A stretch of DNA of 50,005 nt, from positions 1-50,005 of the IMG/VR virus record IMGVR_UViG_3300028610_000159. The stretch is one strand, 5' to 3'. How positions within the stretch are numbered: position 1 is the stretch's first letter; each line of letters opens with the position of its first letter. Source of the stretch: a virus. Taxonomy: Duplodnaviria > Caudoviricetes. The notes under the pieces are model-generated. The model was not told the DNA's origin. It did not search any database and saw only the letters and a list, made by a program, of their open reading frames with translations. The position numbers were made by a program, and so were the translations under genes. Below, piece after piece: positions 7,758-36,759 of the stretch.

Positions 7758-7772
7758 GACAGACAGGAAAAG

Positions 7773-18791: not shown

Positions 18792-18793
18792 CA

Positions 18794-19642: not shown

Positions 19643-19805
19643 TGAGAACTGGTTTACCAAACGTATTCAGGGGACAAGAAGCTGAGAAATTGGCTAATGC
19701 ACTGGGAGAGAAAAACGAGAGTCAGTTAATTGTTAGAGATATGTTGATTATAAGACACCTGATGCTTCGCAATGAACAAAGATGTAGAAAAGCAGGTGTG
19801 TCCTA

Positions 19806-20003: not shown

Positions 20004-20331
20004 TGTAATTTTAGCGTTGACAGAGCAGTGCGTCGATATCCCAGAAGGCATGGGGTACAATGATTTGTGCAAGTTGCTGAAAGCCCACATGGACGGAGAT
20101 ACTCCGACTGATGCAGCCCCAACCAGAACGATCAAGCTCACGAACAAAATCCCTAAACGGAATATGTTCCTGGCTGACGCAGTTCGTAACGAGAGAGATA
20201 CGGAAGTTTTGAATCAAGAGTTGCGCAAGCGTGAGCATAAGGGTAAAGTTCTCAGGACTACGACTGTCAAAGAGTATGAAGTGATCGACGGGCACTGGGT
20301 AACTAATTTTGTTATTGAATTGAAGGAATAG
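19981..20331 (+). CDS. Hypothetical protein
   Basis: AAGGAG RBS. Confidence 0.6.
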   Translation: MARMKKADVILALTEQCVDIPEGMGYNDLCKLLKAHMDGDTPTDAAPTRTIKLTNKIPKRNMFLADAVRNERDTEVLNQELRKREHKGKVLRTTTVKEYEVIDGHWVTNFVIELKE

Positions 20332-20335
20332 TTTT

Positions 20336-21172: not shown

Positions 21173-21340
21173 CGCCCTGAAAGGGATACCGTAGATATGA
21201 AAAAAGATTAGACACTCTAACTATGGTTGGACCTAATTGACCGCCTTGAAAGCAAGGTGACGAGCACAGTCTGTTGTGTAAGGCAGAGCCTCGAAAGAGA
21301 TACCTCTCCGAAATTAAAAATTAACTTAATTACGGAGTAT
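21172..21340 (+). promoter_or_regulatory. Structured MCP leader with repeated internal-loop hairpins and a sequestered RBS
   Basis: Three stems with a C/AYAC internal loop; ctccgaaattaa/ttaattacggag hairpin covers the RBS. Confidence 0.6.
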
Positions 21341-21344
21341 TGAA

Positions 21345-22355: not shown

Positions 22356-22370
22356 GAAAGGGGTACTCTT

Positions 22371-22871
22371 ATGGGTGCACACGAAAATTTAGGCGTATTT
22401 AGCGACGATCAGGATATTTCTGCCGACAATACTGCGTCTACTAATACAATCGATTTGGCTCAGCCAAACGCTCCGAGAATGGGCGTAGGGCAACATGCTC
22501 CACTTCTTTGTATTCGTACTAACAATATCGATAACCTTGCTGCGTCGAATGACACTTTGTCTATCGAATTGCAGGCAGATGACGACGACGGTGCAGGTGA
22601 TCCAACAGGTACATGGACTCATGTTGTTATGATGCCGCTTGTGGGCGTTAATGGCGCTGAGGTTAATCAGAGCGATGCGAGACTTGCAACAGCAGGTGCA
22701 TGGATATTCAGAGGGCAATTGCCTTATGATCTGAAATTCCGTCACATCCGGTTGATGTACAGGAATACAACATCTGTCGGCACGTTCGCTATCGACGCAT
22801 GGCTTGAAGATGGCCCGGCTTCTGATTTCAGAGGAAGTCAGGTAATCAAAAGCAATGTCGGTAATCCGTAA
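22371..22871 (+). CDS. Capsid cement/decoration protein (Bbp16-like)
   Basis: FSDDQDI...STNTIDL...RHIRLMY..GTFAIDAWL; directly after the MCP. Confidence 0.75.
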   Translation: MGAHENLGVFSDDQDISADNTASTNTIDLAQPNAPRMGVGQHAPLLCIRTNNIDNLAASNDTLSIELQADDDDGAGDPTGTWTHVVMMPLVGVNGAEVNQSDARLATAGAWIFRGQLPYDLKFRHIRLMYRNTTSVGTFAIDAWLEDGPASDFRGSQVIKSNVGNP

Positions 22872-22917: not shown

Positions 22918-25266
22918 ATGAAGAAGTATATTGTAATAATGCTCCTGCTGATTACGATGCAGGCGCAGGCTACTTTTACAGCCCAGAATTATCTGGACAA
23001 AAAGACATACTTAGGATCGGGCAATAAACTGCTTGACCCATTGTATTTGCATATCGTAGATGCGCAAGCAGCCGATACTGTAGGTAAGCCGTTCTTCTAC
23101 TACATACCGTCAACGGCACCAGATGAGATAGAAGGATATCTCTACTACAGTTCTAATCTGGATGCGCTTGTTCTTAGGACTGCAAGTGAATGGGTAACTC
23201 TTGAAGCAGGCGGCGACTTTGCGTCGCTTGACGAAGCTTATAATGGCGGTAATGCTATTGACGTGGATGGCAGCGCAGTAACCATGACTGTCAGTCTCGG
23301 TGATAATAACGCCGGGTTACTTGTTGCCCAGAACGATTCTACTAACGATCCGGACGCTATGAATATCACAAGTGCTGCCGATGCCGGTACAGCCGTAGGT
23401 TTGCAGATAGATTGTACCGCAGGGTTTGATATCCAGGGCACAAGTGACTCGTGGAGCGTTTCCATTGCAGGCTTGTTCGACGGCGAAGGATTAACCGGTG
23501 TTACGAACTCGCAAGGTATTCTGTTCGACGGTGACAACGAGATTCAGTTCGGAGATAACTCAGAAGATGTTGCAATGAATTTCTCCGGATCGAATGTTAT
23601 AACGTGGACAACCGATACATCCGTTAATACGATGGCTTTTGGTGATGTAGACGCTTTGACTCAGATTGGCACGATTGCCTTCGATGCTGCTGCTGCATCA
23701 ATTACTCTTACTGCTGATGCAGGTACAGAAGATTTGACAATCAATCAGGCCGGGGCCGTAGATGCAAGTCTTATTCTTACATCTGCCGGGACATCGACAA
23801 CAGACGCGTTGATTATCACTTCGGTTACTGGTAGTACGAAGATCGATTCTGCTGACAATCTTGATATCGATGCTGCCGATGACATCACTATTGACACCGC
23901 AGGCGGATCGATTACCACTACTCTTGTTGGTGGTGATTTTGCTTTAGACGCCACAAACGCTTCTGTTCACTTAGATGCTGGCGAAGCTGTTACCGACGCT
24001 ATCAATATCGACGCTGCTGCCGGCGGCCTTGATGTAGATGTAGCTCTGAGTATATCTCTGACTTCTACAGAAAACACTGTAGATGCTATAGAGATAGTCG
24101 CGTCTGCTGGTGGTATTGATATTACAGCGGCAGGTGCAGCTACTGAGGATATTGACATTGCCAATGCAGCAGGTTCGGTAAATATCACTGCCGGCGAGGA
24201 CCATGCCGCTGCGATTGTAATTACGGAAGACGGTGGTGTGAGTGGCGGTATCAATATCTACGCCGATCAAGGCACTGGCGCATCAGCTACTACAGAACAC
24301 GATGCGTCCGTTCAGTTACATTCTGACGACGGTGGTATTGGTCTCTACACAACTGCCAATCTTTCTGATGCTATCAGGATAGAAACTAACGGCGGAGTGG
24401 ATGAGTTTATCACAATCAACAATCTTCAGGGAACCGGGGCAGATGCAATAACTATTGCTGCAAACGCTGCCGGAGGCGACGTAAATATCGACTCTGTTCT
24501 GGGTAGGATTGAGATAGAGGCGGAAGAAGATGTTGCCAATGCAATACTTATTGACGTTGATGGTGGTAATTCAACTACGATGTCGTTGATAGCAACAACA
24601 GGGACATCCGTTACCGAAGAGGCTGCTGCGATAACGCTGTGGTCTAAAGCCGGTGGTATCAACCTCCAAGCAGACGGGGACCTTGACGATGCAATTGTTA
24701 TCAGAGCTGACGGTGGAACAACTGCCGAGATCACTGTAACTAACGATCAGGGAACGGCGGTTGATTCTATTGAATTGCTTTCCGCGGCTGGTGGAGTCAC
24801 TATAAACGCCGCCAAGCCGGTAAGAGTAACTAATGCGTTTGAGTTGGATGTTGTCGTTGTGCCCGATGCTTCTCCGTACACTGTGCTCGCTAATAACTCT
24901 GGGCAGATGCACTTTATCCCAGACTTGGGGCAGGACACTACGTTCAATCTGCCGGCAGAACTTGACGGCCTTCACTATACATTCATGTATATTGGTGCTG
25001 CTGCTGATGCCCAGGATTGGATTATCACTTCCGGCGATGATACCGAACAATTTGTCGGTGGTGTAGTTCAGCATGATCCAGATGCCGGTGGCGATGATAC
25101 TACGGTGTATTACTCTGACGGTAACAGTAACTCGATATTGGGAGTTCTGACGCCAGAGGCCGGTACCAAGATCGAAATTTGGTACGATCTTGCAACTACA
25201 AGTTGGTACATAAACGGAACTGCGATAACTGCTACAGATACGGGTGTTACGTTTGCTGACCAATAA
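22918..25266 (+). CDS. Acidic repetitive fibre/spike protein with signal peptide
   Basis: AAGGAG RBS; MKKYIVIMLLLITMQAQA; repeats of the DAIxIxAxxGGIxI type. Confidence 0.75.
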   Translation: MKKYIVIMLLLITMQAQATFTAQNYLDKKTYLGSGNKLLDPLYLHIVDAQAADTVGKPFFYYIPSTAPDEIEGYLYYSSNLDALVLRTASEWVTLEAGGDFASLDEAYNGGNAIDVDGSAVTMTVSLGDNNAGLLVAQNDSTNDPDAMNITSAADAGTAVGLQIDCTAGFDIQGTSDSWSVSIAGLFDGEGLTGVTNSQGILFDGDNEIQFGDNSEDVAMNFSGSNVITWTTDTSVNTMAFGDVDALTQIGTIAFDAAAASITLTADAGTEDLTINQAGAVDASLILTSAGTSTTDALIITSVTGSTKIDSADNLDIDAADDITIDTAGGSITTTLVGGDFALDATNASVHLDAGEAVTDAINIDAAAGGLDVDVALSISLTSTENTVDAIEIVASAGGIDITAAGAATEDIDIANAAGSVNITAGEDHAAAIVITEDGGVSGGINIYADQGTGASATTEHDASVQLHSDDGGIGLYTTANLSDAIRIETNGGVDEFITINNLQGTGADAITIAANAAGGDVNIDSVLGRIEIEAEEDVANAILIDVDGGNSTTMSLIATTGTSVTEEAAAITLWSKAGGINLQADGDLDDAIVIRADGGTTAEITVTNDQGTAVDSIELLSAAGGVTINAAKPVRVTNAFELDVVVVPDASPYTVLANNSGQMHFIPDLGQDTTFNLPAELDGLHYTFMYIGAAADAQDWIITSGDDTEQFVGGVVQHDPDAGGDDTTVYYSDGNSNSILGVLTPEAGTKIEIWYDLATTSWYINGTAITATDTGVTFADQ

Positions 25267-25272
25267 CATAAC

Positions 25273-25301
25273 GGGGTGGGTTTCGGCTCACCCCCTTTTT
25301 T
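25273..25301 (+). terminator. Intrinsic terminator
   Basis: ggggtggg/ctcacccc followed by a T-tract. Confidence 0.75.
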
Positions 25302-25311
25302 GGAGAATATA

Positions 25312-26175
25312 ATGCGAAAAATACTTTGCTTTTTAATATTAACGTCGGCCTGTTTAGCTCAGTCAACCACTATTGTCCCAACAATAGAAGGTGACGTTCT
25401 CCACACGATACAGAATGCGTGGAGGATCGCCGACTCAACGACAGCGGCAGGTGACGAACCGTCGGCTCTTGGTGTTGACGAGATGACAAAGCTTGCAGTT
25501 GACGCTATAATAGCGGCAGATTCAAGTGGTGACGGTGAGATTTCCATATTCCCGATACCGTCAAAATGGAACGCTATGCGTTTCAGGGGTGCGAGCGTAG
25601 ACGATGAAGATGATGTAGTTCATACTCTCTATCTCGGTACATTGGGCGGGGATAGAGATTGCGATTTGGACCTTATCGGGGTTTTGACTTGGGACACTGG
25701 ACTACAACAGTCGATGTATAGCCAGATAACATTCACTGATGGCGGAACGTATGTTCCTCAAATCGGAGACACCGTAACAGGTAATACCAGTGGCGAGACT
25801 GCGGTTATTGTAGAAATTTCTGCTTTATCTTCCGGTGCATGGGCTGACGGGGATGCAGCGGGAACTATTACTTATAAATCAGATTCAGGGGCTTTCACCA
25901 ACTCGGAAACAATCTCTATCAAGAAAGCCTCTACCGTACTATCAAGCGACGCTTATACTCATGCCGCTTCTGATTTAGTAGATTTCCTATTGGCTCAGTC
26001 TGTGGTACTTTCCGGCGAAAAAACATGGTCGGCAGGGACAACGTGGAGAATAGCTTCACCGGGCAGCGACGAAGTGGCGGAAGCTAGACTTGACGTAACG
26101 GGTGCAGATATTTTGGTTGTAGTAACAACTGGCCTGACAAGTGTTGATGGTAAGTTACTTGTAAAGGGATATTAG
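25312..26175 (+). CDS. Virion structural protein with signal peptide
   Basis: GGAG RBS; MRKILCFLILTSACLA; GDTVTGNTSGETA beta-barrel-type insert. Confidence 0.7.
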   Translation: MRKILCFLILTSACLAQSTTIVPTIEGDVLHTIQNAWRIADSTTAAGDEPSALGVDEMTKLAVDAIIAADSSGDGEISIFPIPSKWNAMRFRGASVDDEDDVVHTLYLGTLGGDRDCDLDLIGVLTWDTGLQQSMYSQITFTDGGTYVPQIGDTVTGNTSGETAVIVEISALSSGAWADGDAAGTITYKSDSGAFTNSETISIKKASTVLSSDAYTHAASDLVDFLLAQSVVLSGEKTWSAGTTWRIASPGSDEVAEARLDVTGADILVVVTTGLTSVDGKLLVKGY

Positions 26176-26176
26176 T

Positions 26177-26902
26177 ATGGCTGTTTCAGAGACCGACATA
26201 GCAAATCTTGCTTTAGGTAAAATAGGCGGTGCGGGCGATGCCGTTAGCGGGAATGCTTTTATTAGTAGTATCAACGGTTCAGACAAAGTATCGTCATGGA
26301 TGAAAATATCATTCCCCAGAGTAAGGCGCAGGGTTATTAGAGATTTGGCGACCAGTCATGCTCCTTTCAGATCGACGTTGAGATTTCTTAATCTTGACGC
26401 ACAGTTAAGTTCAACTCCCGAAATTGGAAACTGGACTTATGCGTTTAATCTACCGGGTGATTGCCTTGCAGTTGTTAGTCAGTTTGACGAAGATAGCATT
26501 GCCAGGCGGAGCCAGAAGGCAGATTACGTTTCTAATGCTGCTAACATTGTTTATCAATTCGAGGAGGTAGCAAATGAAGCTGGTACTGGTAAGATACTCC
26601 TGACAGACACATTAAGTAATACCGATCAGGATGGGGCTTTCATAGAGTATGTAATTGACACCCCGAATACAGCGTCATTCTCCGAGGAAATGATTGAATG
26701 TATTGCTACATTGCTTGCTTCGGGAGTTTCTCCTGTCATTGGTAAGGACATTGAAACAAGCGATAATATGTTAGTGAAATATCGCGAAGTTGCAGTTCCA
26801 AACGCAAAGAGAGCAAATCTGTTTGATTTCAACTTCTCAGCACGGCCTATCCCAAATTACAAAGGCGGAAGATCAGAAGTTATTGTAAAAGCAGCTACAT
26901 AA
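26177..26902 (+). CDS. Tail adaptor (tail tubular protein A, gp11-like)
   Basis: SETDIANLALGKIG...WTYAFNLPGDCL...FSEEMIECIA. Confidence 0.85.
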   Translation: MAVSETDIANLALGKIGGAGDAVSGNAFISSINGSDKVSSWMKISFPRVRRRVIRDLATSHAPFRSTLRFLNLDAQLSSTPEIGNWTYAFNLPGDCLAVVSQFDEDSIARRSQKADYVSNAANIVYQFEEVANEAGTGKILLTDTLSNTDQDGAFIEYVIDTPNTASFSEEMIECIATLLASGVSPVIGKDIETSDNMLVKYREVAVPNAKRANLFDFNFSARPIPNYKGGRSEVIVKAAT

Positions 26903-26911
26903 GGATATGAT

Positions 26912-28177
26912 ATGAAAAAGATAATGATATTTGTGTTAATGTGTTCAGCATGTGCTTTCGCTACGGTTGACGATCCGGAGTCTATCAGGCAGTATTTCAC
27001 TATTGGCCCGGCAACTGATGAATTCATCTTTACTCAGCCGGTTACTTCCAGTGATGATGTATTTGTTTACAAGAAAGATATTTCTACAGATGCTACACTA
27101 AAGTCTCCCGGCACCGAAACCTTACTGACTATCACTACGGACTATACGATAGTAGCAACAGGCGGAGATTATCTGAATGGCGGGACAGTGACAACGAACA
27201 GTGCGCTTGGAGTTGATTTCCAGTTAGTTATTGTCAGGACGATTAAGAAGAGTCAGGAAACTTCTCAGGGTGCAATTACTCCGACTTCGGTAGTTACGGC
27301 GTTAGATAAACTCACAAGGACAGTTCAGGATTTACAGGACCAGTCTGACAGATCATGGCGATTACCCCAGAGCGATGCAACTACGTTTGACGTGGAAATG
27401 CCTACATTAGCAGACAGGGCAGAGACTTTCCCGTTCTTTAATGCAAGCGGCGTACTAACCTATGTTTCGGACCTTGTTACTAACAGTGAAACAGCAAGTG
27501 CTTTTGGTGTATCTCTTATGCAATCGGCAAATGCCCTGGCGGGAAGAGTTCTCTTGGAGCTAACTACCTCAGATGCAGTCGAGTTCGCTGCCCTAACAGC
27601 CACGACAGGTGCCTTTTCGGGCAGTGTAACATTAGCGGCAGGCGCAGACTTTATCGGTTCGGCAACTTCTGATATTGCTATAGGAGGTTCTGGAACAGAA
27701 AAGTTCACAGTAGCAGGGGCCACTGGTAATACTGTTATTGCTGGAACGGGCACTCTCACCGTTGCTGGCGTAGCAACATTAGGGGCAGCATCGGAACTAG
27801 CCAGTTCACCAGCAACCGCCGACGATAGTACGAAAATTGCGACTACAGCTTATGTCCAAGCCAATATCGGATTTGGAGTGTACACCAGCGACTCCACTAC
27901 CACTCAACCCATGATTGCAGGAGAAGCCTACACAGCCCGGCAGGATGGATTTGTAACTGTTTTAGTGCAGGCTAGCGGAGTAGCAGTAAGTATCGTGACA
28001 GGAAAGATAGGGGCATCTAATAGAGTAAGGGATCAAGCTGTAATATCAGGATGGGCAGGGTTTACGATGCCGGTAGCCAACGGCGAAGCATTCACAATAA
28101 CCACAACTGGATCACCCGGTACCGTAGAGATTGTCTGGAGAGGTGCCCAAACTACTCTACCGCCAACGGGTCCATAA
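26912..28177 (+). CDS. Tail fibre (T7 gp17-like N-terminal domain) with signal peptide
   Basis: MKKIMIFVLMCSACAFA; TTDYTI...GGTVT...ALDKLTRTVQDL; KIATTAYV. Confidence 0.8.
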   Translation: MKKIMIFVLMCSACAFATVDDPESIRQYFTIGPATDEFIFTQPVTSSDDVFVYKKDISTDATLKSPGTETLLTITTDYTIVATGGDYLNGGTVTTNSALGVDFQLVIVRTIKKSQETSQGAITPTSVVTALDKLTRTVQDLQDQSDRSWRLPQSDATTFDVEMPTLADRAETFPFFNASGVLTYVSDLVTNSETASAFGVSLMQSANALAGRVLLELTTSDAVEFAALTATTGAFSGSVTLAAGADFIGSATSDIAIGGSGTEKFTVAGATGNTVIAGTGTLTVAGVATLGAASELASSPATADDSTKIATTAYVQANIGFGVYTSDSTTTQPMIAGEAYTARQDGFVTVLVQASGVAVSIVTGKIGASNRVRDQAVISGWAGFTMPVANGEAFTITTTGSPGTVEIVWRGAQTTLPPTGP

Positions 28178-28188
28178 GGTTGATATAA

Positions 28189-30732
28189 ATGAAAAAAATA
28201 CTGTTTCTATTACTATGCTCAGTCTCCTTTGGATACATAGGCCCTGTTACTAATTTTAACTCTGGGCAAGTCAGTCCATTAATAGAAGCGAGAGGGGATT
28301 TCGCTAAATACAGTTCATCCTGCCGAACACTTGAGAATATGTTTGTAACGGTACAGGGTCCTGCACTGAAAAGGCCGGGAACGGAATATATCGCGACAGC
28401 GAAAGATGCGGGGAAGATAAGATTGATACCTTTTGAGTTCTCTACTGACGATGCGTATATCCTTGAATTCGGGGACAATTATCTAAGATTCTACCGTAAT
28501 GGAGCGCAGATATTAGATGGCGATAATTTTCCTGTAGAAATAGAAACTCAACACCAGACGAGCGATCTGTTTAATATGCAGTTCGTACAAACTGACAACG
28601 CTATGTATATTGTCGATAACGAAAACCCACCCCAGATATTAACAAGGACAAGTCACACTGACTGGGCTATCAGGAATGTACCTTTTACTAACGGGCCTTT
28701 TCTGCCTGAGAACGATCTTGATATATCCATCACGCCAAGTAGGACAACGGGAAATATAACACTTACTTGCAGCGCAGAGATTTTCAAGTCAACACCGGGC
28801 GTAGGGCATAAAGGGTCTTTATGGGCTATCGAGCAGGTCAGGGCAAGTTCGATAGTGAGTGGTACTTTTTCTGACAACGGCACATCATTATCTACACCTT
28901 TTTTTATAGGCGGGTATAGTTTTACGACAACAGGCACAGGGACAGGAACCACGACATTACAGAGAAGTACGAATAACGGAATTTCCTGGCGAAATGCTTT
29001 GACGCCATTGACGAATCAGTTTTTTGACAACCCTGCGGAATTTGAAGAGGATGGAGCGATATACAGGGTCACGCTGACAGGTTCAAATCAAGTAGATATC
29101 AATTACAATTTCACTATCGCGGATAATATCAATAAAGGAGTTGTGAAGATAACAGGTATCGTATCCTCGACAGTTGCTAATGCGTCTGTAATCACCGAAT
29201 TAGCTGATACATCTGCTACTACAACATGGCGAGAGGGGTATTGGTCCGACTTCCGGGGATGGCCGGGAACACTTACATTCCACCAACAGAGACTCGTATA
29301 CGGTGGGTCAGATTCTTTTCCTCAAGAACTCTGGTTTGGCGAACAGAATCCAGATGATTATGCTAATTTTCTTGAAGGTAGTTTAGACACAGCGGCATTT
29401 ACATTTGCCCTTGAGGGCCAAAACCCTATCAGGTGGTTGCTGTCTCAAGATTATCTCTTAATAGGAACGAGCGGATCGTGCGGGAAATGGGGCGAGCAGG
29501 GCAAGTCAGCTACGCCAACCTCACCGAGTTTCCAGAAACAGACAAGGAACGGATCATTCGCCCTTGCCGCTATGTTCGCCGGTGACGATATTATTTACGT
29601 GGAAAGAGGCGGAAGAAAGGTTCGAAGGTTTGGATTTGATTTGCAATCAGATAAATATCTCTCTCCGGAATTAACTGTCTTGTCACCTGAAATAACCGAT
29701 AGCGGTATATTAAACGCCGATTTCCAACTAAGGCCTGATCCGATATTATGGTGTGTTCTCAATAACGGAGACATAGCAACATTGACGCACCAACCGGAAC
29801 AATCTGTAATTGCGTGGACAAAACAGGTAACGGATGGCGACTTTGAGAGCGTGGCGGTTATCTCCAGCGGTGATAATGAAGATGAAGTCTGGGTTTCAGT
29901 TGAAAGAATTTTAGCCGGAGCGAGGTATATAGAACGATTCAAGCCCCATGATTGGGGGTCGGATGACGATGATCTATGGTTTGTTGATTCTGGTTTATCG
30001 TATGACGGAGGGGCAGCGATTACGGTTACAGGAGCAACACAAGCTGACCCCGGAGTGATTACAGCAGGTACTCATGGTTTTAGCGATGGCGACCAGGTTC
30101 TGTTTTCGTCAGTAGGGGGTATGGTAGAACTCAATGGCAATGTCTACACAGTTGCCTCGTCTGATGCGGATACATTTGAATTGAAAGACGCCACAGGTAC
30201 ATGGGACTATGACACCAGCGGATTCACTGCCTACACGTCTGGGGGTTCTGTCCAGCAAGTTGAGGACACTTTCACAGGATTAGATCATCTTGAAGGCGAA
30301 ACAGTTAAGGTCTGGGCTGATGGAATAGTCCTGAGCGATGAGGTTGTGGTGAATGGGGCGATAACCATAGACGTAGCGTCCTCGACAGTAGCCGTAGGAC
30401 TCCCGTACACGGCCAAAATAGAAACATTGCCAATAAGGGTCGACCCGCAGGACATATCACTAAATAAAAAGATAAAAAGGCTGTGGGTCGACCTCTACAA
30501 ATCAGGTACATTCAAGTTCGGGCCGGGCTCTACCGCTGACCTTAGCGAAGTAAATATGTGGGAAGAGGCGACATTAACGGCAAAGCAGGACCTTTACACT
30601 TCGACTGCGAAAATGAAGCAATTTTCATTCATTTATGCGGGCTTCCAAAAGCAGACAGTGTATGTCGAGAGCTCCGAACCGGTACCATTCACGGTGCGCG
30701 CTATAGTTGCAGAACTAGAGGGGAGAAGATGA
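28189..30732 (+). CDS. Tail nozzle (tail tubular protein B, gp12-like) with signal peptide and FCCH-type insert
   Basis: MKKILFLLLCSVSFG then NFNSGQVSP..ARGD..KY...RPGT..RLIPFEFS...FHQQRL...GLDHLEGETV...VGLPY. Confidence 0.9.
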   Translation: MKKILFLLLCSVSFGYIGPVTNFNSGQVSPLIEARGDFAKYSSSCRTLENMFVTVQGPALKRPGTEYIATAKDAGKIRLIPFEFSTDDAYILEFGDNYLRFYRNGAQILDGDNFPVEIETQHQTSDLFNMQFVQTDNAMYIVDNENPPQILTRTSHTDWAIRNVPFTNGPFLPENDLDISITPSRTTGNITLTCSAEIFKSTPGVGHKGSLWAIEQVRASSIVSGTFSDNGTSLSTPFFIGGYSFTTTGTGTGTTTLQRSTNNGISWRNALTPLTNQFFDNPAEFEEDGAIYRVTLTGSNQVDINYNFTIADNINKGVVKITGIVSSTVANASVITELADTSATTTWREGYWSDFRGWPGTLTFHQQRLVYGGSDSFPQELWFGEQNPDDYANFLEGSLDTAAFTFALEGQNPIRWLLSQDYLLIGTSGSCGKWGEQGKSATPTSPSFQKQTRNGSFALAAMFAGDDIIYVERGGRKVRRFGFDLQSDKYLSPELTVLSPEITDSGILNADFQLRPDPILWCVLNNGDIATLTHQPEQSVIAWTKQVTDGDFESVAVISSGDNEDEVWVSVERILAGARYIERFKPHDWGSDDDDLWFVDSGLSYDGGAAITVTGATQADPGVITAGTHGFSDGDQVLFSSVGGMVELNGNVYTVASSDADTFELKDATGTWDYDTSGFTAYTSGGSVQQVEDTFTGLDHLEGETVKVWADGIVLSDEVVVNGAITIDVASSTVAVGLPYTAKIETLPIRVDPQDISLNKKIKRLWVDLYKSGTFKFGPGSTADLSEVNMWEEATLTAKQDLYTSTAKMKQFSFIYAGFQKQTVYVESSEPVPFTVRAIVAELEGRR

Positions 30733-31256
30733 ACCACTTTGATGTATTGAAAATTGAGCGTAATGGCATAGTTTTTCAGGCACACTGGAACAGGAGATAT
30801 GCTCCAATAATTTTAGCTGGTATTGGTACGGCGATTTCGGTAGCTGGTACAATCGAAGAGGGCAAACAAGCCGAAAAAATAGCCAAACAAAGGGCAACCG
30901 TCGACGAAAGAGACGCTGAAGCTGTCAGGGAAGCAACTGTCGATGAAGCCAAAATCAGGCAAGAGAGAGGCAGGCGAATACTTGCTACTCAAAAATCAGT
31001 GGCGGCGGCGGGTAATGTCAGGATAAACAGAGGTTCACCACTACTGATAGAAGCGGAGACACAAGCAAATATTACGCAGGACATAGGATTTGTTCTGGAA
31101 CGTGGCAGGGTAGAATCTTTAGCTCTCAGATCAGGGGCAGATATCGAAAGGCAACTTGGAGAGAATATAAGAAGGCAATCAACGTTTGCGGCTATCGGAA
31201 AAGGAGTAAGGGGCTTCGGTACAATTGCAAATCTAGCTCGTGACCGAGGGATATAA
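30729..31256 (+). CDS. Small internal virion (ejection) protein
   Basis: Hydrophobic A/G segment; ATQKSVAAAGNV..GSPL. Confidence 0.7.
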   Translation: MNHFDVLKIERNGIVFQAHWNRRYAPIILAGIGTAISVAGTIEEGKQAEKIAKQRATVDERDAEAVREATVDEAKIRQERGRRILATQKSVAAAGNVRINRGSPLLIEAETQANITQDIGFVLERGRVESLALRSGADIERQLGENIRRQSTFAAIGKGVRGFGTIANLARDRGI

Positions 31257-33391
31257 TGATTAAAAAAAGTCTAATCTTATTATTGATTGCCAGTACGGCC
31301 TTTGGGTACTTTGAAATATCCAATGATATTCCGACGATTTTTTCTTTCAGTGGCGAGGAAGAATGGCGGCTATGGTCAGGGAGTGACGAAGCCAATGAAT
31401 TGTTTAATAATTCAAGTGGTATATTATTCGATGATGGAAGAGAAAGTATTATTATTGGCAAGTTTACACCGGGCGCGGAGCAAGAAGCTGTAACAACTAT
31501 GGGGTTTTTTGCTGGTCAGGGTCATTTCGTAGGAACGCTTTGTGCTTTCGGAACAGAGGCCGGACAATATAACTCTAATATAGACGGCTCGTCTTTTGGC
31601 TACACAACTGGACGATATAATACAGGGTCAGGATTTTCAGGTTTTGGTGCTTCTGCCGGATATGCCAATGAGGGTGACGGCAATACGGCTTTAGGAGCAT
31701 ACTCGTTCAATACCTTTACTCAAGATGCGGGACTCGCTAAAGCTATAGATACCGTAGACTTCGCCAACAATCAGGTTGTGGTGAATGGTGGTCATAGTTT
31801 TGGAGCAAATAATACTTACAGGAATTTGGTTGCGTCAACATCCGATACGTTTCCAGACGGTCTAACTGGCTCATTCCCGGAATTGTGGCAGGTAGTAGAT
31901 TCAACTACACTTGTTTGCATATCTCAGAGTTTTACGGATGTAGGAGTCGGGACGTTGACACTAACCCCTAGAAATAGTAGCACTATCTATGAGAATTCCA
32001 CTGCCGTTGGTGTCAACGCAGAACCAGACGCAGACTTGCAAGTGATGTTGGGCAGCACAAGCGTAACTGAGGTTAAGACTACAGGTTCATTGACTGCGCC
32101 AAGTGCGACATTAAGTTGGCTCGATCTGACTACGGGTTTAGCGAACCCTGCATATAATGAGGGCAGAGTCTTTTACGACGACGACGAAAAGACTCTTGCT
32201 GTTTACAATAATGAATCTGATGTAACTCTTCAATTAGGACAGGAGATGTATATCAGGGCGACTAACAAAACAGGCTCTACCATAACTAACGGCCAACTGG
32301 TCTACATAGATGGAGCGCAAGGCAATCGCCCTACAATTGACCTTGCAAAAGCCGACTCTACTGCTACTTGCGGTGTTATAGCAATGGCAACTCACGACAT
32401 TCTAAACAATGCTACAGGATTCGTTACCACTGAAGGCATAGTCCATGACATAGACACTGACGGGCTTGGCGTTGGATCTGATCTTTATTTGTCTGCGTCA
32501 GTGGCGGGCGATTATACAGTAACCGCACCAACGGCTCCAAGTTTTGTATTGAAAATTGGAACTGTAATTGTAGATAGTTTAACCGAAGGAGATGTCTGCG
32601 TCCACATAACATCGACTGGCGTATGCGAAACAATGGTAATTCACGATGTGGACATTAACACTGATCTGGACGTGGCAGGTGATACGACATTAGGCGATGA
32701 AGCAACGGACACACTTGATGTTACTGGTGTCTCTCGGTTCGGTGACGGGGGGACAACGGACTATACGCGACTGTCCTCCACAGGTCATCAAACAATGGCT
32801 GGGGCTGCGAGGGTAAAAAAACATCTTCAAGGCATTGTTATCAGTGGCTTCGGAGCAAACGCCCCGACTTCCAGAATAACAGAGGCACCGTTTTTATCGT
32901 GGACTTTTAACGTAAACGACGATTCGCACGAAACAATGGAAGTACCAAAGGATATGGATGTAACTGAGTCCGTAGATATAGTAATCCACTGGTACACGAC
33001 AGACGCTACAGCGGACGGTGTAGATTCATCGAATTGGCAAGCGCAGTGGAACTCAAGGGCATTAGGGGAAACTGTTAACGCAGGTGCGACAACTGATACG
33101 AGCGGGGATGTTTTATGCGGGGCACAATACGTAATGGTGGAGACAACTATTGAGACTATCCCTGCAAACAGTATCACACAAGGCGACCATTTAGGGCTTG
33201 ATATAACAAGAATAGCTTTAGTTGGCGGAACTAACCCAACGCCTTCGGCAACCAGTATTCATTTACTTTCCATAGAAATCGAATATACCGCTAACAAGCT
33301 TGGTGAGGCGGTTGGGGTAGAATTGCTATTGCTTGAAGACGACACGTTCTTATTGCTTGAAGATGACACATTTATGATCCTGGAGATATAA
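31256..33391 (+). CDS. Tail fibre/spike protein with signal peptide
   Basis: MIKKSLILLLIASTAFG; Gly-rich repeats; NKTGSTITNGQLVY domain; C-terminal LLLEDDTF twice. Confidence 0.75.
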   Translation: MIKKSLILLLIASTAFGYFEISNDIPTIFSFSGEEEWRLWSGSDEANELFNNSSGILFDDGRESIIIGKFTPGAEQEAVTTMGFFAGQGHFVGTLCAFGTEAGQYNSNIDGSSFGYTTGRYNTGSGFSGFGASAGYANEGDGNTALGAYSFNTFTQDAGLAKAIDTVDFANNQVVVNGGHSFGANNTYRNLVASTSDTFPDGLTGSFPELWQVVDSTTLVCISQSFTDVGVGTLTLTPRNSSTIYENSTAVGVNAEPDADLQVMLGSTSVTEVKTTGSLTAPSATLSWLDLTTGLANPAYNEGRVFYDDDEKTLAVYNNESDVTLQLGQEMYIRATNKTGSTITNGQLVYIDGAQGNRPTIDLAKADSTATCGVIAMATHDILNNATGFVTTEGIVHDIDTDGLGVGSDLYLSASVAGDYTVTAPTAPSFVLKIGTVIVDSLTEGDVCVHITSTGVCETMVIHDVDINTDLDVAGDTTLGDEATDTLDVTGVSRFGDGGTTDYTRLSSTGHQTMAGAARVKKHLQGIVISGFGANAPTSRITEAPFLSWTFNVNDDSHETMEVPKDMDVTESVDIVIHWYTTDATADGVDSSNWQAQWNSRALGETVNAGATTDTSGDVLCGAQYVMVETTIETIPANSITQGDHLGLDITRIALVGGTNPTPSATSIHLLSIEIEYTANKLGEAVGVELLLLEDDTFLLLEDDTFMILEI
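33327..33374 (+). repeat. Imperfect 24-bp tandem duplication encoding LLLEDDTF
   Basis: tattgcttgaagacgacacgttct / tattgcttgaagatgacacattta. Confidence 0.85.
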
Positions 33392-35205
33392 TGAAAAAAA
33401 TAATACTTGTAATTACACTGTTAGCATCTATTTGCGTAGCCGACACGAAGACGAGTGATCTCGCTGAAACGGTGGACGTGCAAGACGCTGACGTACTGTA
33501 TCTGGTCGATGGCGGAACGAGTAAAAAGATTACAGTCCTAAACTTGTTTGACACAATTGATACATCTCTAAAATTGCTCACAATCCTCACAAACGAGACA
33601 GGAACAGGGCTTGCCGTCTTTGCAACATCCCCAACCTTTACGACCTCTATACTCGCCGCGGCACAAGCCGACATAGGATCAGTAGCAGCAGAGTTCGGCG
33701 ATATATTCATAGGTGACGGCAAAGCAATCAAGTTCGGTGACGATCAGGATGTAACCCTGACACACACAGCAGACACAAAACTCACAGTAAACTTAGAACT
33801 AGAGATTGACGGGGAACTTGACGCTGACGGAATAGTTACTTTAGGTGATGGCGGAGATAACTTTTCTGTTGCTTCGGATGGGATCGACATAGACACGTCT
33901 GGCAATATCACCAACGCCGGGACGATAGCATCCGGTGTTGTGACTATTACGGGTTTAATGAATACGTCTGTTGGATTGGATGCTGTCGGTGCGGTCGATC
34001 TGGATTACGGTTCTGGGGATGTAACTGACCATACTTTTGTATCGGATGGAGGAACAACGATCATTGACGGCTCTGTAACTGCCGTGACAGCCTTTATCAT
34101 CGGTGCGGCTAGTATGTCCGAAGCGGACCTCGAAACACTTGACGGCATCACACCGGGGACAGCAGCAGCGTCTAAGGCTCTTGTTCTGGACGGCGCTCTC
34201 GATATTGCAACGATAAACAGCTTGACCGCCACTACTTTAGTCGGAGCTTTGACAGGCAACGCCGATACGGCAACTCTGGCGGCTACGATCACTGTAGCGG
34301 ATAACGAGGCCACAGCCGAAACAAACGCTATACTGTTCTCTCCCGGCGGCGATCTCGATGGAGGCGATTACACTCCTGAAACCGATGGCGATTTAACGTA
34401 TACGCCAAACACCGGAACCGTCACGGCAACGGAATTTTCAGGTGGTGGAGCGAACCTCACAGCAGTTGACGCAGCAACAGGAGACTCGGCAACGGCGTTC
34501 TTCGATGCAGGTACGATTGAGCATGAAAGAGGCGGACTGCAAGCTGATGTAAGTGCGTTTACCGGCTTAATAGCTGTGACTGGGGCGGACACAACAGCGG
34601 AGATTGATTCAAAGGCCGAGCTTGAGGGCCAGATTGCAGATGTAAGTGATTTCGCTGAAGCTGACGGCGACGTATTCACAGGCGATCACGACTTCGGAGG
34701 TGCCGACCTGGAACTACCACAAGGACAAACACCCGATACGGACGGCGATGTGGACCTTGACTTCACTGATGGATCACTTGTTGTCCAGCATGGCGCGGCT
34801 CACGCTGAATTAGGTGGTGCAACTGATGTTGTGGTAGGCAAACTTATCAAGTCTTTTTCAGCTACTATCTTTGCTCCCGATGGAGTCAATGACGTAATAC
34901 CGGTAAAGCCTATCGTAGCAGGTGAGTTCCCACATGGCATCGTCGTTACGGAAGTTCACATGGTTGTCGGGACAGACAGCAATTACACCATAGACGTGGA
35001 GAACTGGGATGACTTCGATACAATCAATGCAGGTAACCCGTCTATAAACTCAACCGCTTACACCGCTGGCAACGATGGCGAGGTTACAGATTCAGCAATA
35101 ACTTTTGCAACAATAGCGGCAGGCCAGATTATTATGATCGACATCCCAGCTACGGATATAGACTGGGTTTCAATAACAATTTTCTACTATGAACCGATAG
35201 CATGA
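33391..35205 (+). CDS. Tail fibre protein with signal peptide
   Basis: MKKIILVITLLASICVA; DTKTSDL..GTSKKIT; ETGTGLAVFATSPT; GALTGNADTAT. Confidence 0.8.
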   Translation: MKKIILVITLLASICVADTKTSDLAETVDVQDADVLYLVDGGTSKKITVLNLFDTIDTSLKLLTILTNETGTGLAVFATSPTFTTSILAAAQADIGSVAAEFGDIFIGDGKAIKFGDDQDVTLTHTADTKLTVNLELEIDGELDADGIVTLGDGGDNFSVASDGIDIDTSGNITNAGTIASGVVTITGLMNTSVGLDAVGAVDLDYGSGDVTDHTFVSDGGTTIIDGSVTAVTAFIIGAASMSEADLETLDGITPGTAAASKALVLDGALDIATINSLTATTLVGALTGNADTATLAATITVADNEATAETNAILFSPGGDLDGGDYTPETDGDLTYTPNTGTVTATEFSGGGANLTAVDAATGDSATAFFDAGTIEHERGGLQADVSAFTGLIAVTGADTTAEIDSKAELEGQIADVSDFAEADGDVFTGDHDFGGADLELPQGQTPDTDGDVDLDFTDGSLVVQHGAAHAELGGATDVVVGKLIKSFSATIFAPDGVNDVIPVKPIVAGEFPHGIVVTEVHMVVGTDSNYTIDVENWDDFDTINAGNPSINSTAYTAGNDGEVTDSAITFATIAAGQIIMIDIPATDIDWVSITIFYYEPIA

Positions 35206-35233
35206 TAAGTATTGTATTTTTAAGGAGCAAGAC

Positions 35234-35953
35234 ATGGAATTAACTAAAACAGTGACAAAATTATTGTTAATATTGGCAGTATTTGTAGCTCCTGTCTTCG
35301 GACAGGCGACGAAAACGGCGACGACAGAGAATTTGCCTTGGACAGCAATAGCCAACGCCAAAGGCGCAACTGGGACACTCCAGACTACGAGCGAAATTAA
35401 TGTTTCTACCTCTTATTCTGCAGTTGTTCATATCGATTGGGCATTAGCGGAGGCGGCGGCTCACGACGGGACGCAGATTATTGTTATGGTATCGAGCGAA
35501 ACGACCGCCGATGATGGATGGACAGTTCTGACTACAATACTCTCAAATGCAGTTACTCCTGTCAAAACAGACATTGCAGGCGCAGAGGCAGGAGGACAGA
35601 CAGAGCTAACAACCGGAGACCCGACAGCGACAGGCTTGGATCATCCTGGTAAATTGATTTTCATCGAAGATTTAACATTAGCGGCGAATTGCGAAATTGC
35701 TTACCAGATAACAGACAATGGTGCAAATTCAATTACAGTGATTGATGGTATCACTGAGGCAAAAGACGCGGGGGATGATATTTGGACTGTTGACGCGGCT
35801 ACTGCAACAGGAAATGCTTCCGTCGTAAATACATGGGCGATAACCTTGCCCCCAGCGGTAAGAAGGGCAAAAGTAATTTTCAACAATTGGTTCGATGAAA
35901 CTGGCGCAGATGGATATGGCCGTGTTCGGACTTCACTATTAACGGTTCTATAA
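35234..35953 (+). CDS. Virion-associated protein with signal peptide
   Basis: KLLLILAVFVAPVFG; beta-rich. Confidence 0.65.
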   Translation: MELTKTVTKLLLILAVFVAPVFGQATKTATTENLPWTAIANAKGATGTLQTTSEINVSTSYSAVVHIDWALAEAAAHDGTQIIVMVSSETTADDGWTVLTTILSNAVTPVKTDIAGAEAGGQTELTTGDPTATGLDHPGKLIFIEDLTLAANCEIAYQITDNGANSITVIDGITEAKDAGDDIWTVDAATATGNASVVNTWAITLPPAVRRAKVIFNNWFDETGADGYGRVRTSLLTVL

Positions 35954-36759
35954 TGAAAAGATTCTTAATAATCCTGTTCCTGAGTATTTCGGTATCAGCC
36001 CAACTTTTACCATCTGATAAGCCTATGTTTGGAATGCAGCTTGATTTGACGAGCTTTTCGACGAGAAGGCTGGTTTTTTGGTCCCCGTTTACTAAAGCTG
36101 GCAATCTACCCGATTTCTCGTTTGATGGTAATGATGGCACTATTACCGGTGCAACTTGGCAAGGTAGCGGACTGTTGTTTACAGGTGGGTCTACAGATAG
36201 AGTCACACTTAGCAAGAAGTCTCTTGACGGTGCCGCTGCTTTCACAGTGATAGTTGTCTGCACGCCAGAAGTTCTAGGTGCTGATCGTGGACTATTTTTT
36301 ACAGAATTAATAGGAACATCTTTCGCCATAAATTTCTGGTTAGACCATATCGGAGGCAATATAACTACAGCATACGCAGTTAGAACAACCAGCGAAAATG
36401 AAGGTGTTACGTTTGGTACTATGCCGATCACAGTGGGTAATAAATACCACTTCGCTTTGACATACGACGGTGCTTTTAATCGGGTATATGTGAATGGTCA
36501 GCTCGATGGAACGCCAGCGGTAAAAACTGGGACACTAATAGCTTCAGGCACTAACTACACCATCGGAAATAACAATGGTCAAAATAGGAGCTTCAGTGGT
36601 ATTATCTCAGACACGAAGCTCTACACCCGTGCACTTTCAGCTAAAGAAATACAAGCACTATTTATCAACCCCAACCTGCCGATTCAGGTCGATCCGATCT
36701 GGATGTTCTTTCAGGAGGCGCCGGCAGGAGGCGGACAGGTAATATTTATAACACAATAA
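35953..36759 (+). CDS. LamG-domain protein with signal peptide
   Basis: MKRFLIILFLSISVSA; YHFALTYDG..RVYVNGQL...FSGIISDTKLYTRALS. Confidence 0.85.
   Translation: MKRFLIILFLSISVSAQLLPSDKPMFGMQLDLTSFSTRRLVFWSPFTKAGNLPDFSFDGNDGTITGATWQGSGLLFTGGSTDRVTLSKKSLDGAAAFTVIVVCTPEVLGADRGLFFTELIGTSFAINFWLDHIGGNITTAYAVRTTSENEGVTFGTMPITVGNKYHFALTYDGAFNRVYVNGQLDGTPAVKTGTLIASGTNYTIGNNNGQNRSFSGIISDTKLYTRALSAKEIQALFINPNLPIQVDPIWMFFQEAPAGGGQVIFITQ

What the first reader, a model, noticed from the sequence alone, without database searches (positions are those of the whole stretch)
22918..36759. Tail, nozzle and fibre proteins carry Sec-type signal peptides; head and ejection proteins do not
Seen: eight virion-block genes start with a basic n-region, a hydrophobic h-region and a small-residue cleavage site. 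They are 22918 MKKYIVIMLLLITMQAQA, 25312 MRKILCFLILTSACLA, 26912 MKKIMIFVLMCSACAFA, 28189 MKKILFLLLCSVSFG, 31256 MIKKSLILLLIASTAFG, 33391 MKKIILVITLLASICVA, 35234 ...KLLLILAVFVAPVFG and 35953 MKRFLIILFLSISVSA. Portal, scaffold, MCP, cement, adaptor (26177) and the three ejection proteins lack one. In the nozzle the peptide sits just ahead of the NFxxGxxSP motif that normally lies near the start of gp12-like proteins, and no other start codon lies between them. Established: tailed phages such as T7 and BPP-1 assemble tails in the cytoplasm without signal peptides. Inference: the outer tail and fibres are exported or membrane-tethered, so virions may be completed at the inner membrane or in the periplasm (large in Planctomycetota). 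That would be a compartmentalised assembly route I do not recognise as described.
Basis: partly seen in the sequence, partly recalled or inferred. Interest (0 to 1): 0.92.

Follow-up and report, generated by a model that had tools for sequence, protein, structure and literature searches.

The report
Phage tail proteins carrying export signals
In this phage and many uncultured relatives, every outer tail protein starts with what looks like a bacterial export signal while head and internal proteins do not, hinting that the tail is made outside the cytoplasm, which is not known for tailed phages.

Summary
The window is a complete epsilon15-like podovirus genome. Eight virion-block genes (22918-36759) start at ribosome-site-backed ATGs with a Lys/Arg n-region, a 9-14-residue hydrophobic core and a small-residue -3/-1 site. 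Portal, scaffold, capsid, cement, adaptor and internal proteins have none.

The trait is conserved by feature, not sequence. 92 of 120 nozzle homologues carry it. Orthologues of the eight genes scored 30 of 31, against 0 of 78 for head, adaptor and internal proteins. It covers 21 of the 22 signal-bearing rows on the nozzle tree, which form one clade. Where the nozzle gene is split, each piece has its own peptide. Cultured relatives (epsilon15, Cobetia Carin1, Pelagibacter Skadi-4) lack it.

The best reading is genuine cleavable Sec signal peptides, so the distal tail is exported. That heads and tails join only after the inner membrane is breached is inference. No trained predictor or experiment was available.

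The Planctomycetota host rests only on MAG binning. Other prophage-like regions of that phylum show no enrichment, so the trait belongs to the phage lineage. Eight literature searches found no description of it.

The parts
22918..25266 (+). 782-aa beta-rich virion-block protein with an 18-residue signal-like peptide (MKK..AQA|T). Role unknown; fibre- or spike-like is a lead only.
   Evidence: AAGGAG lies upstream. Flagged by the heuristic. 6 of 6 orthologues with a complete N-terminus carry the peptide, as shown in alignment A2. The AF2 model is poor (pLDDT 50): helix 2-15, then about 50 short strands. No PHROG or Pfam family.
25312..26175 (+). 287-aa protein of unknown role with a signal-like peptide (cut after residue 16 or 18).
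   Evidence: GGAG lies upstream. Flagged by the heuristic. 5 of 5 orthologues carry the peptide. No family found.
26177..26902 (+). Adaptor (tail tubular A-like), without a signal peptide.
   Evidence: phrog_394 'tail protein', E = 3.9e-16. It sits just before the fibre and nozzle genes, as gp11 does in epsilon15. 0 of 13 orthologues are flagged.
26912..28177 (+). Tail fibre: a 17-residue signal-like peptide followed by the N-terminal domain also found in the Pelagibacter podophage Skadi-4 'putative tail fiber'.
   Evidence: BLASTP to the Pelagibacter phage Skadi-4 'putative tail fiber': residues 51-191 against 21-169, 32% identity, E = 9e-8. 8 of 8 orthologues carry the peptide, with a conserved junction F-[GA]|T-V.
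28189..30732 (+). Tail nozzle (gp12-like) with a 15-residue signal-like peptide (MKKILFLLLCSVSFG|Y) directly ahead of the conserved FNxGQVSP motif.
   Evidence: phrog_376, E = 1.1e-176, aligned from residue 21. PDB 8ck1_A 'Tail Nozzle', E = 2.9e-82. Epsilon15 gp12 at about 30% identity. The peptide is present in 92 of 120 homologues by the strict heuristic.
30729..31256 (+). Internal virion protein with one internal hydrophobic segment and no N-terminal signal.
   Evidence: phrog_418, E = 2.7e-18. 0 of 16 orthologues are flagged. Hydrophobic window at residues 24-42.
31256..33391 (+). 711-aa protein with a 17-residue signal-like peptide. Role unknown.
   Evidence: Flagged by the heuristic. 1 of 1 orthologue with a complete N-terminus carries the peptide. 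Only a weak Phage_cement_2 match, E = 0.004, below the cut-off. No PDB relative.
33391..35205 (+). 604-aa protein with a 17-residue signal-like peptide. Role unknown.
   Evidence: Flagged by the heuristic. 1 of 1 orthologue carries the peptide. No informative family.
35234..35953 (+). 239-aa protein with a 23-residue signal-like peptide (long n-region). Role unknown.
   Evidence: AAGGAG lies upstream. Flagged by the heuristic. No orthologue in the fetched loci.
35953..36759 (+). 268-aa concanavalin/LamG-type lectin-fold protein with a 16-residue signal-like peptide.
   Evidence: Pfam Laminin_G_3, E = 5.1e-22. Flagged when the 35953 start is used. The start overlaps the previous stop.
17049..22871 (+). 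Head module (portal 17049, scaffold-position gene 20336, major capsid protein 21345, cement-position gene 22371). None has a signal peptide.
   Evidence: phrog_332 E = 2.3e-43 and phrog_212 E = 4.7e-36; phrog_427. Orthologues flagged: portal 0 of 7, scaffold 0 of 13, capsid 0 of 12, cement 0 of 4.
36778..43571 (+). Two large proteins (542 and 1721 aa) in the position of the ejection/internal core proteins. Neither has a signal peptide.
   Evidence: Not flagged. 0 of 13 orthologues of 36778 are flagged. The role is inferred from position and size against epsilon15 gp15-gp17.

Best explanation
The eight N-terminal segments are genuine cleavable Sec-type (signal peptidase I) signal peptides. In this lineage of epsilon15-like podoviruses, every polypeptide distal to the adaptor has acquired one: the nozzle, at least one fibre, a lectin-fold protein and five other outer proteins. 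These proteins are therefore threaded through SecYEG, trimmed to a normal mature N-terminus, and fold and oligomerise outside the cytoplasm. The capsid, portal, adaptor and internal proteins stay in the cytoplasm with the DNA.

Shown here: the sequence anatomy, its conservation, its exact partition between protein classes, and its re-acquisition after gene fission.

Inferred: export and cleavage.

A further and weaker inference is that DNA-filled heads meet the pre-made distal tail only when the inner membrane is breached at lysis.
For: 1. Anatomy. Eight of eight have Lys/Arg near the start, a hydrophobic core and a -3/-1 small-residue site. None has a lipobox or twin-arginine motif. None has a clear second membrane segment, so the cleaved products would be soluble.

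2. Across 25 loci of the clade, 100 of 355 ORFs of at least 100 aa are flagged, against 23 of 953 in 78 other nozzle-bearing loci (p = 5e-40). With the nozzle ORFs left out the counts are 83 of 332 against 22 of 883 (p = 4e-31).
   - Peptide length is 18.9 +/- 3.0 residues.
   - Core plus c-region is 14.8 +/- 2.5 residues, too short for a membrane anchor.
   - Lys/Arg occurs at positions 2-4 in 99 of 100.
   - Lys/Arg is depleted at +1 to +6: 38 of 600 against 176 of 1530.

3. Partition.
   - Orthologues flagged: 22918 6 of 6, 25312 5 of 5, fibre 8 of 8, nozzle 9 of 10, 31256 1 of 1, 33391 1 of 1.
   - Not flagged: portal 0 of 7, scaffold 0 of 13, capsid 0 of 12, cement 0 of 4, adaptor 0 of 13, 30729 0 of 16, 36778 0 of 13.

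4. Conserved by feature, not by sequence. In the nozzle, core identity is 0.29 against 0.62 for the next 35 residues, while hydropathy stays at 2.43 +/- 0.39.

5. The mature nozzle would start 2-8 residues before the FxxGxxSP motif. Signal-free relatives start at a similar distance, from 3 residues inside the aligned N-terminal domain to 10 residues before it.

6. Gene fission. In L010 the nozzle is split into 113-aa and 690-aa genes, each with its own peptide. 20 of 21 short (670-735 aa) homologues start at nozzle residue 77-118 behind a peptide of their own.

7. One deep origin. 21 of 22 signal-bearing nozzles form one clade: 2 changes on an 83-row tree, none of 500 shuffles as low. At least 55 of the best 150 representatives at 50% clustering carry it.

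8. Controls. Epsilon15, Cobetia Carin1 and Pelagibacter Skadi-4 give 0 of 15, 0 of 14 and 0 of 10 flagged.
Against: - No trained predictor (SignalP, Phobius) and no experiment was available. My heuristic imposes the -3/-1 rule, so that feature is partly built in.
- The strict version found only 4 of 10 host outer-membrane proteins; the relaxed version found 9 of 10.
- Topology is a problem. The adaptor has no signal and the nozzle must bind it.
- In T7, adaptor binding is proposed to reopen the portal valve so that DNA runs down to the nozzle gates (PMC6702177, passages read). An adaptor-capped head waiting for a periplasmic nozzle might therefore leak.
- I recognised no canonical holin in 43.5-48.7 kb (by eye). 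The SLT-like protein at 46613 has its own N-terminal hydrophobic segment. Whether lysis here makes holes large enough for heads was not determined.
- Other prophage-like regions in Planctomycetota show no such trait, so the host cell plan does not force it.
- The host is unknown.
Confidence: 0.65

Rival explanations
1. The segments are uncleaved signal anchors. They tether the outer tail proteins to the inner membrane, and the proteins are pulled out when they join the particle.
For: The segments are hydrophobic and N-terminal. A few clade members have cores of 17-18 residues. Phages do use releasable anchors in SAR endolysins (recalled, not from a call).
Against: - Core plus c-region averages 14.8 +/- 2.5 residues.
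- Small residues at -1 and -3 and a Pro at -4 to -6 recur at a fixed junction in fibre orthologues.
- The cores are Leu/Ile/Phe-rich, not Gly/Ala-rich.
- The mature N-terminus after the predicted cut matches that of signal-free relatives.
Confidence: 0.12
2. The segments are never exported. They are hydrophobic N-terminal elements that work inside the virion, for example as plugs, oligomerisation helices or membrane-piercing tips.
For: The nozzle N-terminus lies at the start of its first conserved domain, which I expect to face the adaptor and channel (recalled, not tested here). L077 carries the peptide on the nozzle alone.
Against: - Eight unrelated proteins share the same n/h/c grammar, with Lys/Arg at positions 2-4 in 99 of 100.
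- Sequence in the core drifts freely.
- Each half of a split nozzle gains its own copy.
- No signal-free relative needs such an element.
Confidence: 0.08
3. The exported pool has a second job, such as receptor masking, envelope remodelling or superinfection exclusion. Virions are built from molecules that escape export.
For: The phage encodes other exported-looking proteins outside the virion block: 10815 and the lipoprotein at 16379.
Against: A nozzle has no plausible periplasmic side job. No SD-backed internal start would give a signal-free isoform. The partition follows virion position exactly.
Confidence: 0.06
4. The pattern is chance, a gene-calling artefact or a composition effect.
For: The heuristic flags about 2-4% of ORFs in control sets.
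Against: Window p = 6.6e-5. Clade against others p = 4e-31 with nozzles excluded. Ribosome sites are present at the starts. The peptide is conserved across 92 of 120 homologues.
Confidence: 0.02

Closest known systems
Nozzle (tail tubular protein B, gp12) of epsilon15-, T7- and Carin1-type podoviruses; solved structure 8ck1
   Same: - Full-length homology: 8ck1_A E = 2.9e-82, residues 16-841; epsilon15 gp12 about 30% identity over 89%.
- Same gene order: cement, adaptor, nozzle, internal proteins.
- Same N-terminal FxxGExSP motif.
   Different: The known members start M plus 7-17 hydrophilic residues and have no signal peptide, and none of their neighbours has one either. Here a 15-residue signal-like peptide precedes the motif, and a fibre gene sits between adaptor and nozzle.
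Coat proteins of filamentous (Ff) phages, which use the host secretion machinery and assemble at the membrane
   Same: Virion proteins made with Sec-type signal peptides (recalled). PMC4823517, seen only in the search listing and abstract start, states that filamentous phages hijack the secretion machinery.
   Different: Ff proteins stay membrane-anchored by a C-terminal segment, and the virion is extruded without a capsid (recalled). Here the mature parts have no clear anchor. The particle has a portal, an HK97-type capsid and packaged dsDNA.
Signal-peptide and SAR endolysins of tailed phages
   Same: These are tailed-phage proteins that ride the host Sec system (recalled). This genome has such a candidate at 46613: an SLT-like domain (E = 0.001, below the cut-off) behind a hydrophobic N-terminus.
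   Different: Those are lysis enzymes, not virion parts.
Late, separable addition of distal parts in podoviruses, such as P22 tailspikes added to heads in vitro (recalled); T7 portal valve holding DNA before the tail is built
   Same: This shows that heads can wait for tail parts. [quoted passage not shown]
   Different: In those systems all parts are cytoplasmic. In the T7 model the adaptor reopens the valve, which argues against long waiting once the adaptor is bound.

Membership tests
Sec-type signal peptide cleaved by signal peptidase I | Positively charged n-region | tested here: met
   8 of 8 in the window. Lys/Arg at positions 2-4 in 99 of 100 flagged clade proteins.
Sec-type signal peptide cleaved by signal peptidase I | Hydrophobic core of about 7-15 residues, shorter than a membrane span | tested here: met
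   Cores of 9-14 residues in the eight. Core plus c-region is 14.8 +/- 2.5 residues in the clade.
Sec-type signal peptide cleaved by signal peptidase I | Small uncharged residues at -3 and -1 | tested here: met
   8 of 8, but the scan requires it. Independent support comes from the fixed F-[GA]|T-V junction in fibre orthologues and A|LTYG in 22918 orthologues.
Sec-type signal peptide cleaved by signal peptidase I | Positive call by a trained predictor (SignalP, Phobius) | not testable with these tools
   No such program was on hand. My own heuristic was calibrated on 10 host Omp85 and secretin proteins: strict 4 of 10, relaxed 9 of 10.
Sec-type signal peptide cleaved by signal peptidase I | Export and cleavage in vivo | not testable with these tools
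   Needs reporter fusions or N-terminal proteomics.
Lipoprotein (signal peptidase II) signal | Lipobox [LVI][ASTVI][GAS]C | tested here: not met
   0 of 8. The separate gene 16379 does match, with LLAGC.
Tat signal | Twin-arginine motif in the n-region | tested here: not met
   0 of 8.
gp12-type podovirus tail nozzle | Full-length sequence homology to a structurally validated nozzle | tested here: met
   8ck1_A E = 2.9e-82. phrog_376 E = 1.1e-176.
gp12-type podovirus tail nozzle | Gene lies after the adaptor and before the internal virion proteins | tested here: met
   One fibre gene is intercalated between adaptor and nozzle.
gp12-type podovirus tail nozzle | Hexameric beta-propeller fold closing the channel | not tested
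   No model of the nozzle was made.
Ff-type membrane-assembled virion protein | Mature protein retained in the inner membrane by its own anchor | tested here: not met
   No clear 19-residue hydrophobic window in the mature parts. Two borderline ones (mean hydropathy 1.63-1.69) lie in 26912 and 33391.

The most novel reading that the evidence does not exclude
A large, diverse and so far uncultured lineage of epsilon15-like podoviruses runs a two-compartment assembly line. Capsid, portal, adaptor and internal proteins are built and filled with DNA in the cytoplasm. The whole distal tail (nozzle, fibres, lectin-fold proteins) is exported by Sec, trimmed by signal peptidase and pre-assembled in the periplasm. 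The two halves join only when the inner membrane is breached at lysis. Any newly acquired or newly split tail gene must bring a signal peptide to be incorporated.
Probability: 0.3. Interest if true: 0.92.

Novelty: new variant of a known kind. Interest (0 to 1): 0.8.

Why it matters
As far as I recall, and as the controls here show for three cultured relatives, tailed phages build their tails in the cytoplasm. A deep lineage in which every outer tail protein, and only those, carries an export signal would mean a different assembly topology for Caudoviricetes.

If export is real, the consequences are testable:
- where and when heads and tails meet;
- how DNA is held until then;
- why receptor-binding proteins would need the periplasm (folding, disulfides, modification, or avoidance of cytoplasmic targets).

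It also matters for annotation. Signal-peptide filters used to discard 'host' or 'secreted' genes would wrongly remove the tail genes of these phages. Structural-protein predictors trained on cultured phages would not expect them.

The lineage is not rare. At least 55 of the best 150 nozzle representatives at 50% clustering carry the peptide.

Tried and rejected
- A single-protein scan of viral contigs found nothing. The alignment-based scan worked.
- PDB sequence searches for 26912 and 31256 gave only chance-level hits.
- The ESM Atlas gave only leads below 0.9 for 22918, apart from what is probably its own cluster, and nothing for 25312.
- The AF2 model of 22918 from an 11-row alignment was poor (pLDDT 50.3, pTM 0.36), so I ran no fold search on it. 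The second structure job and the complex job were not used.
- Host-generality idea, tested and not supported:
  - HK97-capsid hits occurred in 43 of 301 Planctomycetota genomes and in 34 of 151 genomes of a control phylum.
  - 35 and 30 regions were fetched.
  - The share of signal-like ORFs was 11 of 456 vs 8 of 406 (strict, p = 0.82) and 30 of 456 vs 22 of 406 (relaxed, p = 0.57).
  - Caveats: these regions may include defective prophages, GTA-like clusters and flanking host genes. Only + strand ORFs 1.4-16 kb into each region were counted.
- CRISPR or DNA-level host link. 19.9 kb of the window searched against 401 Planctomycetota genomes hit only the phage-like contig already known in G002, plus one 36-nt 89% match. 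That match does not lie in a repeat array. I rejected it as chance.
- Lipoprotein and Tat readings were rejected.
- Alternative downstream starts were rejected.
- Rows dropped:
  - The tree left out nozzle ORFs open at a locus edge, ORFs without a detectable N-terminal domain (L010, L017, L070) and exact duplicates.
  - Four rows (L006, L013, L016, L021) were scored as signal-bearing by eye after the heuristic missed them.
  - The 'clade' set was chosen from nozzle identity and tree position, so its nozzle counts are partly circular. One search repeats the count without nozzles.
- Literature. Searches returned no paper whose title or abstract start describes signal peptides on tail proteins of a tailed phage. 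I read only listings for all of them except PMC6702177, where I read the passages returned by one find call. Supplements were closed and not consulted. Papers outside the held library were not searched.

Full report
WHAT THE WINDOW IS

The 50,005-base window is a whole IMG/VR virus record classed as having direct terminal repeats. Its first 100 bases recur at 0-based offset 49869, so the repeat is about 136 bases. Nearly all genes lie on the + strand.

The late region reads, in order:
- small and large terminase (14015, 14404);
- portal (17049; phrog_332, E = 2.3e-43);
- a scaffold-position gene (20336);
- major capsid protein (21345; phrog_212, E = 4.7e-36);
- a cement-position gene (22371; phrog_427);
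- the block in question;
- two large proteins (36778, 38406) in the place of the internal or ejection proteins.

The order matches epsilon15 and Cobetia phage Carin1.

- Starts. Each starts at an ATG. Seven have a GGAG/AGGA/AAGG-type site 6-10 nt upstream. The eighth, 35953, overlaps the previous stop.
- Alternative starts. For 22918 and 25312 longer ORFs exist (22855, 25276), but their starts have weak or no ribosome sites. No in-frame start in codons 2-60 of any of the eight has a Shine-Dalgarno score above 2. In the nozzle the next start is codon 51, past the conserved motif.
- Heuristic scan. I wrote a simple n/h/c heuristic (positive n-region, uncharged hydrophobic core of 7-18 residues, small residues at -3/-1). 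It is not SignalP. It flags all eight and none of the portal, scaffold, capsid, cement, adaptor, 30729, 36778 or 38406.
- Enrichment. Within the window, 8 of the 10 genes in the block are flagged against 3 of 31 elsewhere (p = 6.6e-5).
- Other signal types. None of the eight has a lipobox or twin-arginine motif.
- Anchors. None has a clear further membrane segment.

WHAT THE PROTEINS ARE

- 28189 is a nozzle. It matches phrog_376 (E = 1.1e-176, aligned from residue 21), the solved 'Tail Nozzle' 8ck1_A (E = 2.9e-82, residues 16-841) and epsilon15 gp12 at about 30% identity.
- 26177 is the adaptor (phrog_394).
- 30729 is an internal virion protein (phrog_418).
- 26912 is a tail fibre. Its residues 51-191 align with residues 21-169 of the Pelagibacter phage Skadi-4 tail fibre (E = 9e-8). 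It is thus a known fibre N-terminal domain, pushed about 30 residues down the chain behind a signal-like peptide.
- 35953 has a LamG/concanavalin-type domain.
- The roles of 22918, 25312, 31256, 33391 and 35234 remain open.
- An AF2 model of 22918 was too poor to search with. It shows a helix at residues 2-15 and then about 50 short strands.

THE TRAIT IS CONSERVED, AND BY FEATURE

- Homologue counts. Of the 120 best nozzle homologues (42-100% identity), 92 are flagged by the strict heuristic.
- The 28 not flagged. By eye, about ten are gene calls that begin at or after the motif, about fifteen show a visible hydrophobic peptide that the rule misses, and three are unclear.
- Drift. In a 20-row nozzle alignment the hydrophobic core is 29% identical on average, against 62% for the next 35 residues. 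Its hydropathy stays at 2.43 +/- 0.39.
- Orthologues in 18 closely related loci split cleanly:
  - flagged: 22918 6 of 6, 25312 5 of 5, fibre 8 of 8, nozzle 9 of 10, 31256 1 of 1, 33391 1 of 1;
  - not flagged: portal 0 of 7, scaffold 0 of 13, capsid 0 of 12, cement 0 of 4, adaptor 0 of 13, 30729 0 of 16, 36778 0 of 13.
- Junctions. The cleavage junction is fixed in orthologues while the core drifts, for example ..P-V-F-[GA]|T-V-x-x-G-E in the fibre and A|L-T-Y-G in 22918.

CLADE AGAINST OUTSIDERS

- Counts. Over 25 clade loci, 100 of 355 ORFs of at least 100 aa are flagged. In 78 other loci that also encode a nozzle relative the count is 23 of 953 (p = 5e-40). Because the clade was picked partly by its nozzles, I repeated the count without nozzle ORFs: 83 of 332 against 22 of 883 (p = 4e-31). 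A relaxed heuristic gives 113 of 355 against 39 of 953.
- Features. Peptide length is 18.9 +/- 3.0 residues. Lys/Arg occurs at positions 2-4 in 99 of 100. Lys/Arg is depleted just after the predicted cut.
- Cultured relatives. Epsilon15, Carin1 and Skadi-4 have none: 0 of 15, 0 of 14 and 0 of 10. Their nozzles start M plus 7-17 hydrophilic residues before the motif.
- Tree. On a FastTree of 83 nozzles built without the peptide, 21 of the 22 signal-bearing rows form one clade (support 91; an inner 19-row clade 99). L077 is a separate gain. The tree needs two changes, and none of 500 label shuffles was as low.
- Breadth. Among the best 150 representatives of a 50%-identity clustering of 1.84 billion proteins, 55 are flagged. 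The share falls from 19 of 25 at the top ranks to 3 of 25 at ranks 126-150. The lineage is therefore large.

A NATURAL EXPERIMENT

In L010 the nozzle is split into two genes:
- a 113-aa gene (peptide plus nozzle residues 20-105);
- a 690-aa gene (its own peptide plus residues 99-844).

20 of 21 short (670-735 aa) homologues start at nozzle residue 77-118 behind a peptide of their own, at two or more different split points. A new N-terminus in this lineage acquires a new peptide. That argues the peptide is needed per polypeptide.

HOST

Relatives are binned with Phycisphaerae (L085, 54% identity; two named homologues), Pirellulales (L088, L089), Omnitrophota (L086, a 2.7-kb contig) and Anaerolineaceae (L087) MAGs. 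L085 (4 of 9) and L089 (6 of 16) show the trait. Loci in Luteolibacter, Xanthobacter and Cloacibacillus genomes and in a Melainabacteria-binned MAG, among others, do not.

These are whole phage-sized contigs, not integrated prophages, so the link is by binning only. A DNA search of 401 Planctomycetota genomes gave no spacer-like hit.

IS IT A PROPERTY OF THE HOST PHYLUM?

I fetched 35 regions downstream of HK97-type capsid genes from Planctomycetota genomes and 30 from a control phylum. The share of signal-like ORFs is the same: 11 of 456 vs 8 of 406 strict, and 30 of 456 vs 22 of 406 relaxed. The relaxed rule finds 9 of 10 host Omp85 or secretin proteins, so it is sensitive enough. The trait therefore belongs to this podovirus lineage.

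HOW IT MOST LIKELY WORKS

The grammar is what SecYEG and signal peptidase I read. It is shared by unrelated proteins, drifts in sequence and is regained after fission. I therefore take the peptides to be real export signals (confidence 0.65). After cleavage the nozzle would have the same kind of N-terminus as its signal-free relatives. The products would be soluble.

What follows is inference. The distal tail would fold and perhaps pre-assemble outside the cytoplasm, and meet heads only once the inner membrane is breached.

- For feasibility: the T7 portal can hold DNA for a time before the tail is built (PMC6702177).
- Against: in the same model adaptor binding reopens the valve. Also, I recognised no large-hole holin here.

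The rivals are an uncleaved anchor, an in-virion hydrophobic element, a second periplasmic job, and chance. They are weighed in their own sections.

NOVELTY

Eight full-text searches returned nothing that describes signal peptides on tail proteins of a tailed phage. The nearest known case is the filamentous phages.

LIMITS

- There was no trained predictor and no experiment.
- Gene calls in the loci are my own simple ORF calls.
- The tree is FastTree only.
- Supplements were closed.

Noticed in passing
window 10815-11774 (+): A 319-aa protein in the early/middle region with a strong signal-like N-terminus (score 5.2) and no PHROG or Pfam family. It is an exported-looking phage protein outside the virion block.
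   Followed up: partly
window 16379-16750 (+): A 123-aa gene between terminase and portal with a canonical lipobox (LLAGC) followed by a coiled-coil-like sequence. It is a predicted lipoprotein in the middle of the head module, with no family found.
   Followed up: partly
window 43585-44025 and 46613-47113 (+): Candidate lysis genes.
- 43585: a 146-aa protein with one N-terminal membrane segment and a charged, coiled-coil-like tail.
- 46613: a 166-aa protein with an N-terminal hydrophobic segment and a weak SLT match (E = 0.001, below the cut-off).
- No canonical holin was recognised nearby.
   Followed up: partly
window 17049-22355, 30729-31256 and 36778-43571, compared with the eight signal-bearing genes: Portal, scaffold, capsid, 30729, 36778 and 38406 together hold no cysteine in 3632 residues. 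The mature parts of the eight signal-bearing proteins hold 14 in 3959 (p = 1.4e-4), including 4 in the nozzle and 6 in 31256. Whether this reflects disulfides outside the cytoplasm is untested.
   Followed up: partly
window 33300-33391 (C-terminus of 31256): The protein ends in a tandem LLLEDDTF-like repeat (..LLLLEDDTFLLLEDDTFMILEI). This is an odd acidic and hydrophobic tail of unknown meaning.
   Followed up: no
L010 7368-12375; proteins P0036-P0068 and others: The nozzle gene is very plastic in this lineage.
- It is split into two genes in L010 and about 20 homologues.
- It is extended to about 1250 aa with a LamG (PF13385) domain in many others.
- In L010 an 865-aa protein carries nozzle N-domain pieces at both of its ends.
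   Followed up: partly
L077 5481-5777: In the one locus with an independent gain of a nozzle signal peptide, a 98-aa protein starts MKLNRRQLLKG.., which looks like a twin-arginine signal.
   Followed up: no
window 7713-8729 and 7775-8764 (+): Two ORFs of 338 and 329 aa overlap over about 1 kb in different frames. By eye, the 7775 frame carries cytosine-methyltransferase-like motifs (recalled). The other long open frame is unexplained.
   Followed up: no
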